Below are positions 144-9,721 of a stretch of DNA of 64,000 nt, piece by piece. Numbering within the stretch: the first letter of the stretch is position 1; every line of letters starts with the position of its first letter. The DNA lies in the NCBI RefSeq assembly GCF_009914755.1, contig NC_060935.1, one strand, 5' to 3'. The position numbers and the translations under genes were made by a program. The notes under the pieces were generated by a model that worked only from the letters and a program-made list of their open reading frames with translations, did no database searches and was not told the origin of the DNA. This DNA comes from the human T2T-CHM13v2.0 reference genome, Homo sapiens.

Positions 144-1734
144 TGCACAAAGATAAGATTCTGTGTAAGTACCTTGTTTCCGATTAATTTTTCTGGCTCA
201 GTATTTAAGAAATTGTGTTAGTCCATTTTCACATTGCTATAAAGAACTACCTGATATGGTTTAGGTTTGTGTTCCCACCCAAATCTCATCTCAAATTGTA
301 ATCCCAACATGTCGAGGGAGGTACATAGTGGGAGGTGATTGGATCATCAGGGTGCTTTCTCCCATGCTGTTCTCATGGTAGTGAGGCAGTTCTCACCAGA
401 TCTGATGATTTTAAAAGTGGCAGTTTCCCCTGCATTCTCACTCTTTTCTGCTACCATGTAAAATGTGCCTTGCTTCCTCTTCACTTTCCACCATGATTGT
501 AAGTTTCCTGAGGCCTGCCAAGCCACGTGAAACTGTGAGTCAATTAAATTTCTTTTCTTTATAAATTAGTCTCAGGGCAGTGTCTGTACAGCAGTGTCAG
601 AATGGACTAATGCAGACAATTGGTACCAGGAATGCAGCACTACTATAAAGATAACCTGGAGATGTGGAACTTGGTAACACACAGAGATTGGAACAGTTTG
701 GAGGGCTCAGAAGAAGACAGGAAGATGTGGGAAAGTTTGTAACTTCCTACAGACTTGTTTAATGGTTTTGAACAAAATGTTGATAGTGATATGGAAGTTC
801 AGGCTGAGGTGGTCTCAGACAGAGATAAGAAACTTATTGGGAACTGGAGCATAGGTCACTCTTGCTATGCTTTAGCAAAGAGATTGGCAGCATTTTGCCT
901 CTGCCTTAGAGATCTTTGGAAATTTGAACTTGAGAGAGCTGATTTAGGGTATCTGGCAGAAGAAATTTCTAAGCAGCAAAGCATTCAAGATGTGTCCTGC
1001 TTTTTCCTGAAAACATACAGTTATATGAGCTTACAAAGAGATGGATTGAAAGTGGAACTTATTTTTAAAGGGCAAGCAGAGCATAACAGTTTGGAAAATA
1101 TTCAGCCTAACTATGTGGTAGAAAAGAAAAACCCATTTCCTGAGAGAGGAATTAAAGCCAGATGCATACATTTGCATAAATAATGAAAAGCCAAATGTTA
1201 ATCAACCAGACAATGGGGAAAATGGCTCCAAGGCATTTCAGAGATCTTCAAGGCATCTTCTCATATCACAGGCCCAGAGGCCTAGAGGAGAAAAATTGTT
1301 TTGTGGGCCAGGCCCAGAGCTCAGCTGCTTTGTGTAGTCTCAGGACTGGGTGTCCTGCATCCCAGCAGCTCCAGCTCTAGCCATGGCTAAAAGGGGCAAC
1401 ATACAGCTCACGTTGATGCTTCAGAGGGTGCAAATCCTAAGCCTTGGCAACTTCCATGTAGTGTTGGGCCTGCAGGTGCACAGAAGGTAAGAGTTGAGCT
1501 TTGGGAGCCTCCACCTAAATTTCAGAGGATGTATATAAATGCCTAAATAAGCAGGCAGAAGTCTACTGCAGAGGCAAAGGCCTCATGGAAAACCTTTGCT
1601 AAGGTAATGCAGAGGGAAATGTAGGGTTCCAGCCCTGACAGAGGGCCCCCATAGTGAGAGGTGAAGCCAGCTGGCCTTCTGAGGCAGGTGGGGACTTCGA
1701 GAACTTTTCTGTCTAGCAAAAGGATTGTAAATGC

Positions 1735-1938
1735 ACCAATCATCTCTCTGTGTTTAGCTAAAGGATTGTAAATGCACCAATCAGCACTCTGTAAAATGGA
1801 CCAATCAGCACTCTGTAAAATGGACAAATCAGCACTCTGCAAAATGGACCAATCAGCACTCTGTAAAATGGACAAATCAGCACTCTGCAAAATGGACCAA
1901 TCAGCAGGATGTGGGTGGGGCCAAATAACAGAATAAAA
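1735..1938 (+). promoter_or_regulatory. LTR12 U3 CCAAT-box (NF-Y) repeat array with AATAAA TATA-like box
   Basis: ~24-nt repeats containing CCAAT/CAAAT-CAGC, then GGGTGGGG and GAATAAAAG (1931-1939); established ERV9 promoter layout. Activity not shown. Confidence 0.65.
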
Positions 1939-2017
1939 GCTGGCCACCTGAGCCAGCAGCAGCAACCTGCTTGGGTCCCTTTCCATGCTGTGGAAGCTTT
2001 GTTCTTTCGCTCTCCAC

Positions 2018-2023
2018 AATAAA
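2018..2023 (+). terminator. LTR R-region poly(A) signal (equivalent site at ~7590 in the 3' LTR)
   Basis: CAATAAATCTTGCTGCTGCTCACTCTTTGG, the typical ERV9 R/U5 context. Confidence 0.6.
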
Positions 2024-2217
2024 TCTTGCTGCTGCTCACTCTTTGGGTCTGCACTACCTTTATGAGCTATAACACTCACTGAGAGGGTCTGCAGCTTCAT
2101 TCCTGAAGTCAGTGAGACCACGAACCCACTGGAAGGAAGAAACTCCAGACATATCTGAAAATCGGAAGGAACAAACTCCAGACACACCATCTTTAAGAGC
2201 TGTAACACTCACCGTGA

Positions 2218-2419
<202 letters not shown>

Positions 2420-2566
2420 CTCCAGACACATATTAACATCTGAAGGAACAAACTCCAGACACACCATCTTTAAGAGCTGTAACACTCACCACAAGCGTGC
2501 GTGGCTTCATTCTTGAAGTCAGCGAGACCAAGAACCCACCAGAAGGAATAAATTCTGGACACATTT

Positions 2567-2584
2567 TGGCAACCACGAAGGGAC
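2567..2584 (+). other. Primer binding site complementary to tRNA-Arg 3' end
   Basis: TGGCAACCACGAAGGGAC, 18 nt, 3 nt after the LTR; reverse complement GTCCCTTCGTGGTTGCCA; ERV9 uses tRNA-Arg. Confidence 0.85.
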
Positions 2585-3441: not shown

Positions 3442-3760
3442 CAGGTTTTCGAGAATGCATCGGTAAAGGCCACTAAATCCAATTTTTCTCGGTCCTTTTT
3501 GTGGTCTAGGAGGACAGGCAAGTGTGCAGGTTTTTGAGAATGCATCAGTAAGGGCCACTAAATCTGACCTTCCTTGGTCCTCCTTGTAGTCTAGGAGGAA
3601 AACTACTGTTTCTGCTGCTGCTTCAATGAGCGCAACTATTCTGATCAGCAGGGTCCAGGGACCACTGCAGGTTCTTGGGGAAGAGGTGTTTCTGCTGCTG
3701 TGTCAGTGAGTGCAACTATTCTGATCAGCAGGGTCTATGGACCATTGTGGGTTCTTGGGC
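3442..3760 (+). repeat. ERV leader tandem repeats (two ~85-nt copies, then two ~80-nt copies)
   Basis: CAGGTTTT..GAGAATGCATC..CCACTAAATC occurs twice; TGTTTCTGCTGCTG..GCAACTATTCTGATCAGCAGGGTC occurs twice. Confidence 0.75.
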
Positions 3761-3812
3761 GGGGAGTGGGGGAAACAAACAAACCAAAACCCCAGGTGGT
3801 TTTGTCTTTCAG

Positions 3813-5269
3813 ATGGGAAACACTCAGACACCAACAGGCTCACCCTTGAAATGCATCCTAAGCCATTGGGACCAATTTGACCCGCAAACCCTGAAAAAGG
3901 GGCGGCTCCTTTTTTTCTGCACTTACGGCCCCAATATTCTGTCTCTGATGGGGAAAAATGGCCACCTGAGGGAAGTATAAATTACAATACTATCCTGCAG
4001 TTTGACCTTTTCTGTAAGAGGGAAGGCAAATGGAGTGAAATCCCTTATGTCCAAGGTTTCTTTTCATTGAAGGAGAATACACAACTATGCAAAGCTTGCA
4101 ATTTACATCCCACAGGAGGACCTCTCAGCTTACCTCCATATCCTAGCCTCCCTATAGCTTCCCTTCCTATTAATGATAAGCCTACTCTAATCTCCCCCAC
4201 CCAGAAGGAAACAAGCAAAGAAATCTCCAAAGGACCATAAAAACCCCCGGGCTATCGGTTATGTTCCCTTCAACCTATAGGGGGAGGGGAATTTGGCTCA
4301 ACCCAGGTACATGTCCCCTTCTCCCTCTCTGATTCAAAGCAGATCAAGGCAGACCTGGGGAAGCTTTCAGATGATCCTGATAGGTGTATAGATATCCTAC
4401 AGGGTCTAGGGCAAACCTTCTATCTCACTTGGAGAGATGTCATGCTATTGTTAGATCAAACCCTGGCCTTTAATGAAAAGAATGTGGCTTTAGTTGCAGC
4501 CTGAAAGTTTGGAGACACCTGGTATCTTAGTCAAGTAAATGATAGAATGACAGCTGAAGAAGGGGACAAATTCCCTACTGGTCAGCAAGCCGTCCCCATT
4601 ATGGATCCCCACTGGGACCTCAATTCAGATCATGGGGACTGGAGTCGCAAACATCTGTTGACCTGTGTTCTAGAAGAACTAAGGAGAATTAGGAAAAAGA
4701 CCATGAATTATTCAATGTTGTCCACCATGACTCAGGGAAAGGAAGATAATCCTTCTGCCTTCCTCGAGCAGTTATGGGAGGCCTTAAGAAAATATACTCC
4801 CTTGTCACCCGACTCACTTGAGGGTCAGTTGATCCAAAAAGACAAGTTTGTTACCCAATCAGCCACAGATATTGGGAGAAACTTCCAAAAGTGAGCCCTG
4901 GGCCCTGAACAAAATCTGGAGGCATTATTAAACCTGGAAACGTTAGTGTTTTGTAATAGGGACCAAGAGCAACAGGCCCAAATGGAAAAGTGAGATCAGA
5001 GAAAGGCTGCAGCCTTAGTCCTGGCCCTCAGACAAACAAACCTTGGTGGTTCAGAGAGGACAGAAAATGGAGCAGGCCAATCACCCAGTAGGGCTTGTTA
5101 TCAGTGTGGTTTACAAGGACACTTTAAAAAAGATTGTCCAAGAAGAAACAAGCTGCCCCCTCACCCATGTCCACTATGCTGAGGCAATCACTGGAAGGTG
5201 CACTGCCCCAGAGGGCAAAGGTTGTCTGGGCCAGAAGCACCCAACCAGATGATCCAACAACAGGACTGA
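3813..5269 (+). pseudogene. gag: ERV9 gag, disrupted by stops and frameshifts
   Basis: MGNTQTPTGSPLKCILSHWDQFDPQTLKK (MA), DPHWDLNSDHGDW and QGKEDNPSAFLEQL (CA), CYQCGLQGHFKKDC zinc knuckle, ends QQQD-TGA. Confidence 0.9.
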
Positions 5270-6519: not shown

Positions 6520-7210
6520 CATCAGCACAGAGCCGTATAACTAATACCCCTACTTATAGGGTTAGGAATGGCTACTGCTACAGGAACTGGAATAGCCAGT
6601 TTATCTACTTCATTATCCTACTACCACACACTCTCAAAGGATTTATCAGACTGTTTGCAAGAAATAACAAAATCTATCCTTACACTACAATCCCAAATAG
6701 ACTCTTTGGCAGCAGTGACTGTCCAAAACTGCCAAGGCCTAAACCTCCCCACTGCTGAGAAAGGAGGACTCTGCACCTTCTTAGGGGAAGAGTGTTGTTT
6801 TTACACTAACCAGTCAGGGATAGTATGAGATGCTGCCCAGCATTTACAGGAAAAGGCTTCTGAAATCAGACGCCTTTCAAACTCTTATACCAATCTCTGG
6901 AGTTTGGCAACATGGCTTCTACCCTTTCTAGGTCCTGTGGCAGCCATCTTGCTATTACTCACCTTTGGGCCCTGTATTTTTAACCTCCTTGTCAAATTTC
7001 TTTCCTCTAGGATCAAGGCCAGTAAGCTACAGATGGTCTTACAAATGGAACCTCAAATGAGCTTAACTAACAACTTCTACTGAGGACCCCTGGACTGACC
7101 CACTGGCCCTTTCACTGGCCTAAAGAGTTCCCCTCTGGAGGACACTACAACTGCAGGGCCCCTTCATCATCCCTATCCAGCAGGAAGTAGCTAGAGTGGT
7201 CATCACCCAA
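6520..7210 (+). pseudogene. env: env transmembrane-subunit remnant (SU deleted)
   Basis: Fusion peptide LIPLLIGLGMATATGTGIA, degenerate ISD VQNCQGLNLPTAEKGGL, CX6CC (CTFLGEECC); stop at 6826-6828. Confidence 0.9.
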
Positions 7211-7250: not shown

Positions 7251-8136
7251 TGAAAGGTGAAGCCAGCTGGGCTTCTATGTCGGGTGGAGACTTGGAGAAC
7301 TTTTCTGTCTAGCTAAAGGATTGTAAATGCATCAATCATTGCTCTGTGTCTAGCTAAAGGATTGTAAATGCACCAATCAGCACTATGTAAAAACGCACCA
7401 ATCAGCACTATGTAAAATGGACCAATCAGCACTCTTAAAATGGACCAATCAGCAATCTTTAAAATGGACCAACCAGTAGGATGTGGGTGGAGCCAAATAA
7501 GGGAATAAAGGCTGGCCACCCAAGCCAGCAGCGGCAACCCACTCGGGTCCCCTTCCATGCTGTGGAAGCTTTGTTCCTTCGCTCTTCACAATAAATCTTG
7601 CTGCTGCTCACTCTTTGGGTCCGCACTACCTTTATGAGCTGTAACACTCATCGCAAGGGTCTGCGGCTTCATTCCTGAAGTCAGCGAGACCACAAACCCA
7701 CTGGAAGGAAGAAACTCCAGACACATCTGAACATCAGAAGGAACAAACTCCGGACACACCATCTTTAAGAGCTGTAACACTCACTGCGAGGGTCCGCGGC
7801 TTCATTCTTGAAGTCAGCGAGACCAAGAACCAATGTTTATACAAAAGATAGAGCTTCTAAATGTAAAATTTCAGCCCTGGATCTTCTTATTAAGCATTAC
7901 AGACATCTTTAGTTTTTTTCCAGAGATTTTGTTTTGCTTGTATTTGTCGAAGTCACTCAACAGTATTGAATTTCATTAATGCAGAGAAGAAACTCCAGAT
8001 GCATCTTAACATCTGACAGAACAAACTCTGTACACACCATCTTTAAGAACTGTAACACTCACCACAAGCGTCTGTGGCTTCATTCTTGAAGTCAGCAAGA
8101 CCAAGAATCCACCAGAAGGAATAAATTCCAGACACA
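7251..8136 (+). mobile_element. 3' LTR (LTR12F-like) of the ERV9 provirus
   Basis: Direct repeat of 1655-2563, including the U5 insert. Confidence 0.92.
7829..7992 (+). pseudogene. PRKDC: Second copy of the PRKDC scrambled-exon fragment, in 3' LTR U5
   Basis: TNVYTKDRASKCKISALDLLIK, then CATTACAGACATCTTTAGTT...CCAGAGATTT...AAGTCACTCAACAGTATTGAA, then TTTCATTAATGCAGAGAAGAAA; junction at 7894/7895. Confidence 0.9.
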
Positions 8137-9721
8137 CTAGGGCACTGCCTAGTGAAGCTGTGAGAAGAGCTTCTCCAGACCCCAGAAAGGTAGATCCACT
8201 GACAGCACCATGCACCTGGAGAAGCTGCATGCACTCAATGCCAACCTCTGAAAGCAGCTGGGAGGGGGGCTGTACCCTGCAAAGCCATAGGAATGGAGTT
8301 GCCCAAGGCCATGTGAGCCCACCTCTTGCATCAGCGTGACCTAGATGTGAGACATGGAGTTAAAGATCATTTTGGAGCTTTAAGATTTAATCTCAAAATT
8401 TAACGCTGGTTTCAGACTTGTGTGGGGAATGTGGCCCCTTTGTTTTGGCCAATTTCTCCCATTTGGGATGGGAACATTTACCCAATGCCTGTATCCCCAT
8501 TGTATCTTCAAAGTAACTCACTTGCTCAGGCTCACAGGCAGAAGGAACTTGCTTTGTCTCAGATGAGACTATGGACTTTGACTTTTGGGTTGATGCTGGA
8601 ATGAGTTAAGTTTTGGGGGACTGTTGAGAAGGCATGATTGGTTTTGAAATGTGAAAAGAACGTGAGATTTGGGAGGCGCCAGGGCAGAATGATACGGTTT
8701 GGCTTTGTGTCCCAACCACATCTTATATCAAGTTTTAATCCCCACGTGTTGAGGGAGGGACATGGTGGGAGGTGATTGGATCATGGAGGCTTTTCCTCCC
8801 ATGCTGTTCTCATGATAGTGAGAAAGTTCTCATGAGATCTGATGGTTTTAAAAGTGGCAGTTTCCTTTACACTCTCCCTCTCTCCTGCCACCATGTACAT
8901 AAGACAAGCCTTGATTCCCATTGACATTCTGCCATGACTGTAAGTTTCCTGAGGCCTACCCAGCCACACAGAACTGTAAGTCAATTAAACCTCTTCTTTA
9001 TAAATTACCCAGTCTCCGGGAGTATCTTTATAGCAGTGTGAGAACAAACTAATACACTACCTGAGACTGGGTAATTTATGAAGAAAAGAGGTTTAAACCA
9101 TCAGATCTCATAAAAACTCACTGTCATGAGAACAGCATGTGGGAAACCTACCTTCATGATCCAACAACTTCCCACTAGGTCCCTCCCCTGACATGTGGGG
9201 ATTACAATTCAACATGAGATTTGGGTGGGGGCATAGAGCAAAACCATATTAGAAATCTTGCCTAATATTTTAATCATTACACACATCTAACACTTTGCCT
9301 CTGGTTTCTGAGGCACACAGTCAGTATAAGGTATACTTCTTTGAAACTCAGGTGTAATTAAAATTTTCTACTATCAATAATAAAGTATAATTCTATCTTT
9401 TCACTTTACTGATTAAAATTGAGACTTAAAAGTGAATTTAAAATCACTATTAAACTTCTTTCATAAAGTAAAAGAAAATTTAGAATTATATTGAAATTAT
9501 AACATCTTTACCAACAATTAACTGGTGTGATATTTAGCTAAATATACAAGTTCAAACAGAACATGAATAGAGTAAAATTAACTCAAAAATATGAATAAAA
9601 AGGAAGAATATGCAAATCTTGTGATGATATAATTTATTATTAAAATAATGTTAGATGAATTTAGCAAGTACAATTTATTCAAACTTGTGAAAAAGTTAGT
9701 GAGGTTAACAGTAAATCTTTA

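What the first reader, a model, noticed from the sequence alone, without database searches (positions are those of the whole stretch)
7829..7992. The same PRKDC circle fragment is in both LTRs, so it travelled through the retroviral replication cycle
Seen: the 3' LTR has the insert at the same position with the same junctions. The copies differ at 5 of 66 nt in the first segment and each keeps ancestral states the other lost (3' has TKD and CCAGAGAT; 5' has AAKCKIP). Both have TAA where the Glu of FREC is expected. Knowledge: U5 of both LTRs is copied from one RNA template at reverse transcription. Inference: capture occurred at or before formation of this provirus, and the shared derived change hints at an earlier progenitor. 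That predicts a small LTR12 subfamily dispersing a circRNA junction, which could also create false circPRKDC reads.
Basis: partly seen in the sequence, partly recalled or inferred. Interest (0 to 1): 0.85.

Follow-up and report, generated by a model that had tools for sequence, protein, structure and literature searches.

The report
PRKDC circular-RNA piece in HERV9 LTRs
A retrovirus fossil on human chromosome 11 carries, in both of its end repeats, a 155-base copy of a circular RNA from the DNA-repair gene PRKDC, apparently picked up when the viral copying enzyme hopped onto the circle; the pseudogene itself seems to be in print already.

Summary
An internally deleted class-I provirus (5' LTR 1655-2563, 3' LTR 7251-8136) has the same insert at the same place in both LTRs (2260-2412 and 7832-7985).

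The insert is PRKDC (chr8) in the order: last 63 nt of exon 4, all of exon 2, first 15 nt of exon 3. The exon 4 to exon 2 join sits exactly on the splice boundaries, so it is a back-splice junction of a 245-nt circle.

Both LTR/insert joins lie in microhomology (3 nt and 7 nt). There is no poly(A), and the insert is in sense orientation. This fits template switching by reverse transcriptase while it copied U5, which puts the insert into both LTRs automatically.

The insert copies differ by 7.9% and the LTRs proper by 9.6%, so there is no sign of recent gene conversion.

The predicted LTR12 subfamily does not exist in this genome. The insert and its junctions occur only in these two LTRs.

Dong et al. 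2016 already name a human "circPRKDC-derived pseudogene", very probably this locus; I could not open their supplements. The proviral U5 context and the resolved mechanism may be unpublished.

This is a well-documented case of known kinds, of moderate interest.

The parts
1655..2563 (+). 5' LTR (909 nt) of an LTR12/HERV9-type provirus. It starts TG and ends CA. AATAAA lies at 2018, so the insert is in U5.
   Evidence: The family name LTR12 is recalled, not tested with a repeat library. The family is large: 2575 and 3234 first-look candidates.
2136..2259 (+). U5 unit 'B' (124 nt), directly upstream of the 5' insert. Its last 3 nt (ACC, 2257-2259) are the left microhomology with PRKDC exon 4.
2260..2322 (+). 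5' copy, segment 1: the last 63 nt of the 75-nt PRKDC exon 4. It ends on the exon's last base.
2323..2397 (+). 5' copy, segment 2: the whole 77-nt PRKDC exon 2 (75 nt here after a 2-nt deletion). It begins on the exon's first base, so the 2322/2323 join is the back-splice junction.
2398..2412 (+). 5' copy, segment 3: the first 15 nt of PRKDC exon 3, joined to exon 2 by the normal splice. It holds the shared GAA-to-TAA change.
2413..2536 (+). U5 unit B' (124 nt), a second copy of B directly downstream of the insert. Its first 7 nt (GAAGAAA, 2413-2419) are the right microhomology with PRKDC exon 3.
2567..2584 (+). Primer-binding site, 3 nt after the 5' LTR.
   Evidence: read from the sequence. 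The matching tRNA was not tested.
4505..4891 (+). gag fragment (Pfam Gag_p30, E 7.6e-15).
6541..7080 (+). env transmembrane part in two frame pieces (Pfam TLV_coat, E 2.1e-29 and 1.4e-09).
7251..8136 (+). 3' LTR (886 nt), preceded by a purine-rich tract.
7708..7831 (+). Unit B of the 3' LTR. ACC microhomology at 7829-7831.
7832..7985 (+). 3' copy of the insert: exon 4 part 7832-7894, exon 2 7895-7970, exon 3 part 7971-7985.
7986..8109 (+). Unit B' of the 3' LTR. GAAGAAA microhomology at 7986-7992.

Best explanation
A HERV9-type particle held a 245-nt circular RNA made of PRKDC exons 2, 3 and 4.

Reverse transcriptase was making minus-strand strong-stop DNA, starting from the primer-binding site and moving through U5. 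At a 7-nt match (GAAGAAA) it switched from the viral RNA to exon 3 of the circle. It then copied 155 nt towards the RNA's 5' end: the start of exon 3, all of exon 2, across the back-splice junction, and the last 63 nt of exon 4. At a 3-nt match (ACC) it switched back to viral U5.

Both LTRs of a provirus take their U5 from this one DNA, so the insert landed in both. The provirus integrated on chr11, roughly 10-22 Myr ago, and the two copies then decayed independently.

Shown here: the anatomy, the source exons, the exact splice boundaries, the microhomologies, the equal divergence, and the uniqueness in the genome.

Inferred: packaging of the circle, the stage of reverse transcription, and the date.

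Open: whether the capture happened in the cycle that made this provirus or in an unfixed predecessor.
For: 1. Source and order. The whole-genome search gave only the two LTR copies and two chr8 exons, in reversed order on the gene strand. The chr8 gene is PRKDC: exon 1 is residues 1-51 and the 93-nt exon is residues 78-108 of DNA-PKcs, both at 100%. The three exons are therefore exons 2, 3 and 4 (77, 93 and 75 nt).

2. Back-splice. Segment 1 ends on the last base of exon 4, before GT. Segment 2 starts on the first base of exon 2, after AG. Exon 2 is then joined to exon 3 by the normal splice across a 91-nt intron.

3. Template switching. The joins have 3-nt and 7-nt microhomology. In a simulation with random switch points, P(7 or more)=0.001, P(3 or more)=0.058 and P(sum of 10 or more)=0.0003. 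There is no poly(A) and no target-site duplication around the insert. The insert is in sense orientation, as expected if minus-strand DNA was copied from the RNA.

4. Both LTRs from the start. The joins are identical. The copies differ at 12/151 (7.9%) and the LTRs proper at 70/732 (9.6%), p=0.64; without CpG sites the figures are 6.2% and 7.5%. At all 12 sites where the copies differ, one copy equals human PRKDC.

5. It is a provirus. It has two LTRs in the same orientation, a primer-binding site, a purine tract, and gag and env Pfam hits.

6. The circle is plausible. Inverted repeats of about 300 nt at 91% identity lie in intron 1 and intron 4, close to exons 2 and 4.

7. The mechanism is established in the literature: LTR-mediated retroposition by microsimilarity-dependent template switches (PMC5131818, abstract and passages).
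Against: - The insert is flanked by two 124-nt U5 units, B and B'. They carry 5 differences that are fixed in both LTRs. That is more than the 1.6 expected if the units arose in the capture event and aged together with the insert (P=0.025). So either the B-B' duplication predates the capture, or two different viral RNAs served as templates. The simple one-template picture is incomplete.
- The provirus's target-site duplication is only 3 of 4 bases (atag/ctag).
- Divergence alone excludes LTR-LTR gene conversion only for the later part of the provirus's life. The 95% interval of the insert divergence is 0.43-1.45 times the LTR value.
- One shared G-to-T change is unexplained.
- No orthologous or empty site in another primate could be examined.
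- The U5 assignment rests on the position of AATAAA and on recalled ERV9 LTR organisation.
Confidence: 0.85

Rival explanations
1. The capture was retroviral, but the scrambled exon 4-exon 2 junction did not come from a circle. It came from a linear RNA made by trans-splicing or exon repetition, from a now-lost tandem duplication of exons 2-4, or from reverse transcriptase jumping between the ends of a structured linear RNA.
For: Sequence alone cannot separate a circle from a linear exon-repetition RNA. Dong et al. state this caveat for non-colinear pseudogenes (PMC4897178, main text).
Against: Both sides of the junction fall exactly on splice boundaries. That excludes a random jump. The human genome has single copies of these exons. 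Inverted repeats flank exons 2-4 as in typical circle-forming loci. Dong et al. started their pipeline from expressed circRNA junctions (figure legend).
Confidence: 0.07
2. A cDNA piece of the circle was inserted into one LTR of the already integrated provirus, for example during repair of a DNA break using microhomology. Early LTR-LTR gene conversion then copied it to the other LTR.
For: Microhomology at both joins also fits end-joining repair. Divergence allows a conversion in roughly the first half of the provirus's life.
Against: It needs two rare events. There is no dip in divergence next to the insert: B differs at 8/124 and B' at 13/124 between the LTRs. The sense orientation and the U5 location are what the reverse-transcription route predicts without further assumptions.
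Confidence: 0.05
3. One reading: the capture happened in an earlier germline progenitor and founded a small LTR12 subfamily that spread the junction.
For: There is one shared derived change in both copies. B and B' were already different when the provirus formed.
Against: - Apart from the two LTR copies, the only matches to the insert are its two PRKDC source exons on chr8 (4 of 4 candidates scored).
- The back-splice 25-mer gave 2 matches, against 1 for the reversed control.
- The left-junction 22-mer gave 30 matches with up to 3 mismatches, against 29 for the control. The only near match elsewhere (chr8:89.7 Mb) has no PRKDC sequence beyond it.
- The right-junction 20-mer gave 20 matches, against 29 for the control. 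The 18 matches outside the provirus were not inspected.
Confidence: 0.03

Closest known systems
circRNA-derived pseudogenes, including the human 'circPRKDC-derived pseudogene' (Dong et al. 2016, Cell Res, PMC4897178; whole main text read, supplements not seen)
   Same: A non-colinear exon-exon junction in genomic DNA, sequence confined to the circle's exons, and no poly(A). The paper reports the human circPRKDC-derived pseudogene in chimp and gorilla but not rhesus. That agrees with the LTR divergence here.
   Different: The main text gives no coordinates, no exons and no LTR context for the human case, and calls the mechanism 'mysterious'. Here the fragment is shown twice, in U5 of both LTRs of one provirus, with microhomology joins. 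Identity of the two loci is likely but unproven.
Mouse circRFWD2-derived pseudogenes associated with MMERVK10C LTR elements (same paper)
   Same: A circRNA junction embedded in or next to LTR-retroelement sequence.
   Different: The mouse case has at least 33 dispersed copies. Here there is a single provirus and no dispersal in the human genome.
LTR-mediated retroposition by microsimilarity-dependent template switching (Tan et al. 2016, PMC5131818, abstract and passages). That paper also cites HERV-K capture of FAM8A1 (Jamain 2001), which I did not read.
   Same: Cellular RNA flanked by LTR-element sequence, microsimilarity at both fusion points, partial copy of the parent RNA, no L1 hallmarks, and both LTRs present.
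   Different: In those cases the insert usually replaces internal ORF sequence and derives from linear mRNA. Here it lies inside U5, is therefore present twice, and derives from a circle.
Retroviral transduction of host sequences by copy-choice recombination (recalled; cited within PMC5131818)
   Same: Reverse transcriptase switches between co-packaged RNAs at short homologies.
   Different: There is no read-through chimeric transcript and no coding capacity. The piece is short and non-coding and sits in the LTR.

Membership tests
circRNA-derived pseudogene | Exon-exon junction in reversed (non-colinear) order, exactly at the annotated splice boundaries | tested here: met
   The last base of exon 4 is joined to the first base of exon 2. 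GT and AG flank these points in the gene.
circRNA-derived pseudogene | Sequence confined to the exons of the circle, with no sequence from outside it | tested here: met
   Only parts of exons 2, 3 and 4 are present: 155 nt, or 165 with the microhomologies, of a 245-nt circle.
circRNA-derived pseudogene | No poly(A) tail | tested here: met
   The insert ends inside exon 3, at a 7-nt match with the LTR.
circRNA-derived pseudogene | The parent circRNA exists | not testable with these tools
   No RNA data were available. Indirect support: inverted repeats of about 300 nt in introns 1 and 4, and Dong et al. built their junction set from expressed circRNAs.
LTR-mediated retroposition (template switch) | Microsimilarity at both fusion points beyond chance | tested here: met
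   The joins have 3 nt and 7 nt. P(sum of 10 or more)=0.0003 in 200,000 random switch pairs.
LTR-mediated retroposition (template switch) | Flanked by LTR-element sequence that is discontinuous, not a simple insertion with target-site duplication | tested here: inconclusive
   There is no short target-site duplication. The flanks are two 124-nt U5 units, B and B'. This reads either as a 9-nt replacement in a pre-existing B-B' tandem or as a re-copied unit. A B-B tandem without insert exists in 1 of 16 inspected LTRs. It exists in 0 of the 13 closest relatives.
LTR-mediated retroposition (template switch) | No L1 hallmarks | tested here: met
   No poly(A) and no target-site duplication at the insert.
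HERV9 / LTR12 provirus | Two LTRs in the same orientation, primer-binding site after the 5' LTR, purine tract before the 3' LTR, retroviral genes between them | tested here: met
   Of the 16 plus-strand ORF pieces I submitted (out of 47 ORFs of 50 aa or more on both strands), 3 hit Pfam: Gag_p30 once and TLV_coat twice. None hit a pol domain.
HERV9 / LTR12 provirus | Match to the curated LTR12 / HERV9 repeat models | not testable with these tools
No repeat library was available. The family has thousands of copies.
HERV9 / LTR12 provirus | Target-site duplication flanking the provirus | tested here: inconclusive
   atag against ctag, 3 of 4 bases.

The most novel reading that the evidence does not exclude
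This provirus is a mechanistically resolved fossil of circRNA retrotransposition in primates. A HERV9 particle packaged a 245-nt PRKDC circle. During strong-stop DNA synthesis its reverse transcriptase copied 63% of the circle, including the back-splice junction, and wrote it into U5 and so into both LTRs.

That would answer, for at least one route, the question Dong et al. left open, which they called 'mysterious'. It would also show that PRKDC exon 2-4 back-splicing already existed some 10-20 Myr ago. The proviral, two-copy U5 context may not have been described in print.
Probability: 0.5. Interest if true: 0.55.

Novelty: already known. Interest (0 to 1): 0.35.

Why it matters
- It is a clean natural example of how a circular RNA can re-enter the germline: through retroviral template switching rather than the L1 machinery. 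The circle's junction, the entry point and the exit point are all preserved.
- It gives a minimum age for a specific back-splicing event.
- It has a practical side. The 5' copy matches the true exon 4 to exon 2 junction perfectly over 64 nt and the 3' copy over 36 nt. Transcripts that start in these LTRs could therefore be scored as circPRKDC(2-4) reads by pipelines that do not first map reads linearly to the genome.
- It does not affect hsa_circ_0136666 (exons 68-70).

Tried and rejected
- **Further copies.** A 1-mismatch hit of the left k-mer at chr8:89.7 Mb was fetched. It shows no PRKDC sequence beyond the 22-mer and only vague likeness before it, so I treat it as chance.
- **Recent gene conversion of the insert.** Rejected, because divergence equals that of the flanks.
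- **Duplication of U5 unit B created in the capture from one template.** Doubtful, because of 5 fixed B/B' differences. It was not resolved.
- **Closest 'empty' relatives.** In 11 of 11 inspected best matches to the upstream flank, the LTR simply ends after the point where the insert sits here. These matches align to the terminal unit and do not show a true empty site.
- **Literature searches.**
  - 'circPRKDC-derived' found 1 paper.
  - PRKDC + LTR12 + circRNA found 1 paper, a congress abstract book that I did not open.
  - circRNA + pseudogene + endogenous retrovirus + template switching found 2 reviews.
  - A search on false-positive junctions from retrotransposed copies found 6 papers. None of their titles or abstracts in the listing concerns this locus.
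  - None of these searches turned up a description of the LTR context of the human locus.
- **Exon 1.** It was not within 1.5 kb of exon 2. It was found 2.5 kb upstream after fetching more sequence.

Full report
**What is there.** The window is human chr11.
- Between 1655 and 8136 lies a provirus with two LTRs in the same orientation: the 5' LTR at 1655-2563 and the 3' LTR at 7251-8136.
- A primer-binding site sits 3 nt after the 5' LTR, and a purine-rich tract sits before the 3' LTR.
- I submitted 16 plus-strand ORF pieces, out of 47 ORFs of 50 aa or more on both strands. Three of them hit Pfam: Gag_p30 (4505-4891) and TLV_coat twice (6541-7080). None hit a pol domain.
- So this is a class-I, gammaretrovirus-like provirus with much of its interior missing.
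- The LTRs carry 24-nt U3 repeats and belong to a family with thousands of copies (2575 and 3234 first-look candidates).
- The name LTR12/HERV9 is recalled from these hallmarks. No repeat library was available to test it.

**The insert.** Both LTRs carry a foreign stretch at the same alignment column with the same joins.
- A search of the whole assembly with the 161-nt 5' copy gave 4 matches out of 4 candidates. Two are the LTR copies. The other two are exons on the minus strand of chr8, matched in reversed order: the first part of the insert matches the downstream exon and the second part matches the upstream exon.
- The chr8 gene is PRKDC. Its first coding exon translates to DNA-PKcs residues 1-51, and the 93-nt exon to residues 78-108, both 100% identical to solved structures. 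The exons involved are therefore exons 2 (77 nt), 3 (93 nt) and 4 (75 nt), which together read as one open frame.
- The insert consists of three pieces in this order:

| Piece | Length | Detail |
|---|---|---|
| End of exon 4 | 63 nt | runs up to the base before the intron's GT |
| Exon 2 | whole exon | starts from the base after the intron's AG |
| Start of exon 3 | 15 nt | joined to exon 2 by the normal splice across a 91-nt intron |

- An exon 4 to exon 2 join exactly on splice boundaries is the signature of a back-splice. The circle would be 245 nt, of which 155 nt were copied (165 nt if the ambiguous bases are counted).
- In the present human gene, inverted repeats of about 300 nt at 91% identity lie in intron 1 and intron 4, close to exons 2 and 4. 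This is the usual arrangement at circle-forming loci.

**The joins.**
- On the left, the LTR and exon 4 share ACC. On the right, exon 3 and the LTR share GAAGAAA.
- With random switch points between this U5 and the circle, 7 nt or more occurs with P=0.001, 3 nt or more with P=0.058, and a sum of 10 or more with P=0.0003.
- There is no poly(A) and no short target-site duplication, and the insert is in sense orientation.
- AATAAA lies at 2018 and 7590, about 240 nt upstream of the insert, so the insert is in U5. This is inferred from that signal and from recalled ERV9 LTR organisation.
- These features fit microsimilarity-dependent template switching by reverse transcriptase, as described for LTR-mediated retroposition (PMC5131818, abstract and passages; review PMC5408686, passages).
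- U5 RNA is copied only once, into minus-strand strong-stop DNA, and both LTRs inherit that copy (established retrovirology). A switch at that stage therefore explains both the sense orientation and the presence in both LTRs.

**Age, and the test for conversion.**

| Region | Differences between the LTRs | Without CpG sites |
|---|---|---|
| LTRs proper | 70 of 732 (9.6%) | 7.5% |
| Insert copies | 12 of 151 (7.9%) | 6.2% |
| Fisher p | 0.64 | 0.73 |

(All.)
- Against human PRKDC the 5' copy has 5 substitutions and 1 indel, and the 3' copy has 9 substitutions and 2 indels.
- At each of the 12 sites where the copies differ, one copy equals PRKDC.
- Only one change is shared: G to T, which turns the Glu codon of FREC into TAA.
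- The two copies therefore decayed independently from one sequence that differed from today's exons by a single base.
- With K2P of about 0.10 and recalled rates of 2.3-5 x 10^-9 per site per year, the provirus is roughly 10-22 Myr old.
- Divergence alone excludes conversion only for the later part of that time. The 95% interval is 0.43-1.45 times the LTR value.

**A complication: the flanking duplication.**
- The insert sits between two 124-nt U5 units: B at 2136-2259 and 7708-7831, and B' at 2413-2536 and 7986-8109.
- The 13 closest relatives I inspected have this unit once: 0 of 13 have two.
- Among 16 LTRs with an exact match to a hypothetical uninterrupted B-B' join (out of 855 matches with up to 1 mismatch), 1 has a tandem B-B without any insert. 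It is L047, and it belongs to a different branch of the family.
- B and B' differ at 5 positions that are fixed in both LTRs. Only 1.6 would be expected if they had arisen in the capture and aged with the insert (P=0.025).
- So one of two things happened. Either the progenitor already had a B-B' tandem and the enzyme returned 9 nt from where it left, or it returned to a second, different co-packaged viral RNA. I could not decide between these.

- No subfamily exists in this assembly.
  - The back-splice 25-mer with up to 3 mismatches occurs twice, both times here. The reversed control gave 1 match.
  - The left-junction k-mer gave 30 matches with up to 3 mismatches, against 29 for the control. 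The single 1-mismatch hit elsewhere has no PRKDC sequence after it.
  - The right-junction k-mer gave 20 matches, against 29 for the control. I did not inspect the 18 that lie outside the provirus.
- The single shared change is weak evidence for an earlier progenitor. A parallel hit has a rough chance of 0.07. Errors close to a switch point are another possibility, which I infer rather than show.
- False junction reads are possible for the exon 4 to exon 2 junction. The perfect match to the true junction spans 64 nt in the 5' copy and 36 nt in the 3' copy.
- The circle usually called circPRKDC, hsa_circ_0136666, is made of exons 68-70 and is a different molecule (PMC10718020, passages).

**What is known.**
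- Dong et al. 2016 (PMC4897178, whole main text read) defined circRNA-derived pseudogenes by the reversed exon junction.
- They name a human circPRKDC-derived pseudogene that is present in chimp and gorilla but not rhesus.
- They note LTR enrichment around the mouse circRFWD2 copies, warn about confusion of reads, and call the mechanism mysterious.
- Their coordinates are in PDF supplements that I could not open.
- This assembly holds the PRKDC exon 4-exon 2 junction only here, and the age fits. The published pseudogene is therefore very probably this locus, but a circle of other PRKDC exons elsewhere is not excluded.
- In four searches I found no text that places the human case in the U5 of both LTRs of a provirus or describes its joins.

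**Verdict.**
- The subfamily prediction fails in this genome.
- The entity is an instance of two known kinds and is probably already listed in print.
- What may be new is the resolved anatomy and mechanism.

Noticed in passing
window 1746-1954 and 7367-7502: The 24-nt U3 repeats differ in number between the two LTRs. The 3' LTR lacks 23 nt, one unit, relative to the 5' LTR.
   Followed up: no
window 273-561 and 8710-9002: Direct repeats of 79-83% identity lie on either side of the provirus, about 1.1 kb upstream and 0.6 kb downstream. They are probably two members of an older interspersed repeat and not part of the provirus.
   Followed up: no
window 3442-3759: Two pairs of adjacent direct repeats of about 73 nt (84-88% identity, spacing 80-85 nt) lie in the proviral region upstream of gag. 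They overlap the RefSeq 'enhancer' 3542-4180.
   Followed up: no
window 1264-2463: The RefSeq 'enhancer' feature covers the 5' flank, U3, R and U5 of the 5' LTR, and the whole 5' PRKDC insert.
   Followed up: no
L047 (G000:C23:117585592-117588622, minus strand): An LTR of the same large family on chrX has a tandem duplication of the roughly 131-nt U5 unit without any foreign insert. This shows that the U5 unit number varies in the family.
   Followed up: partly
L007/L003/L004 (G000:C8:48330623-48345181): PRKDC intron 1 holds three Alu-sized repeats, and the first 1.5 kb of intron 4 holds two. Several pairs are in inverted orientation. The best pair is 304 nt at 91% identity; its intron 1 arm lies about 80 nt upstream of exon 2 and its intron 4 arm about 390 nt downstream of exon 4.
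   Followed up: partly
L054 (G000:C8:89714600-89715100): A 22-mer that differs by 1 base from the left LTR/insert junction lies at the end of what looks like another LTR-like element. There is no PRKDC sequence after it.
   Followed up: yes
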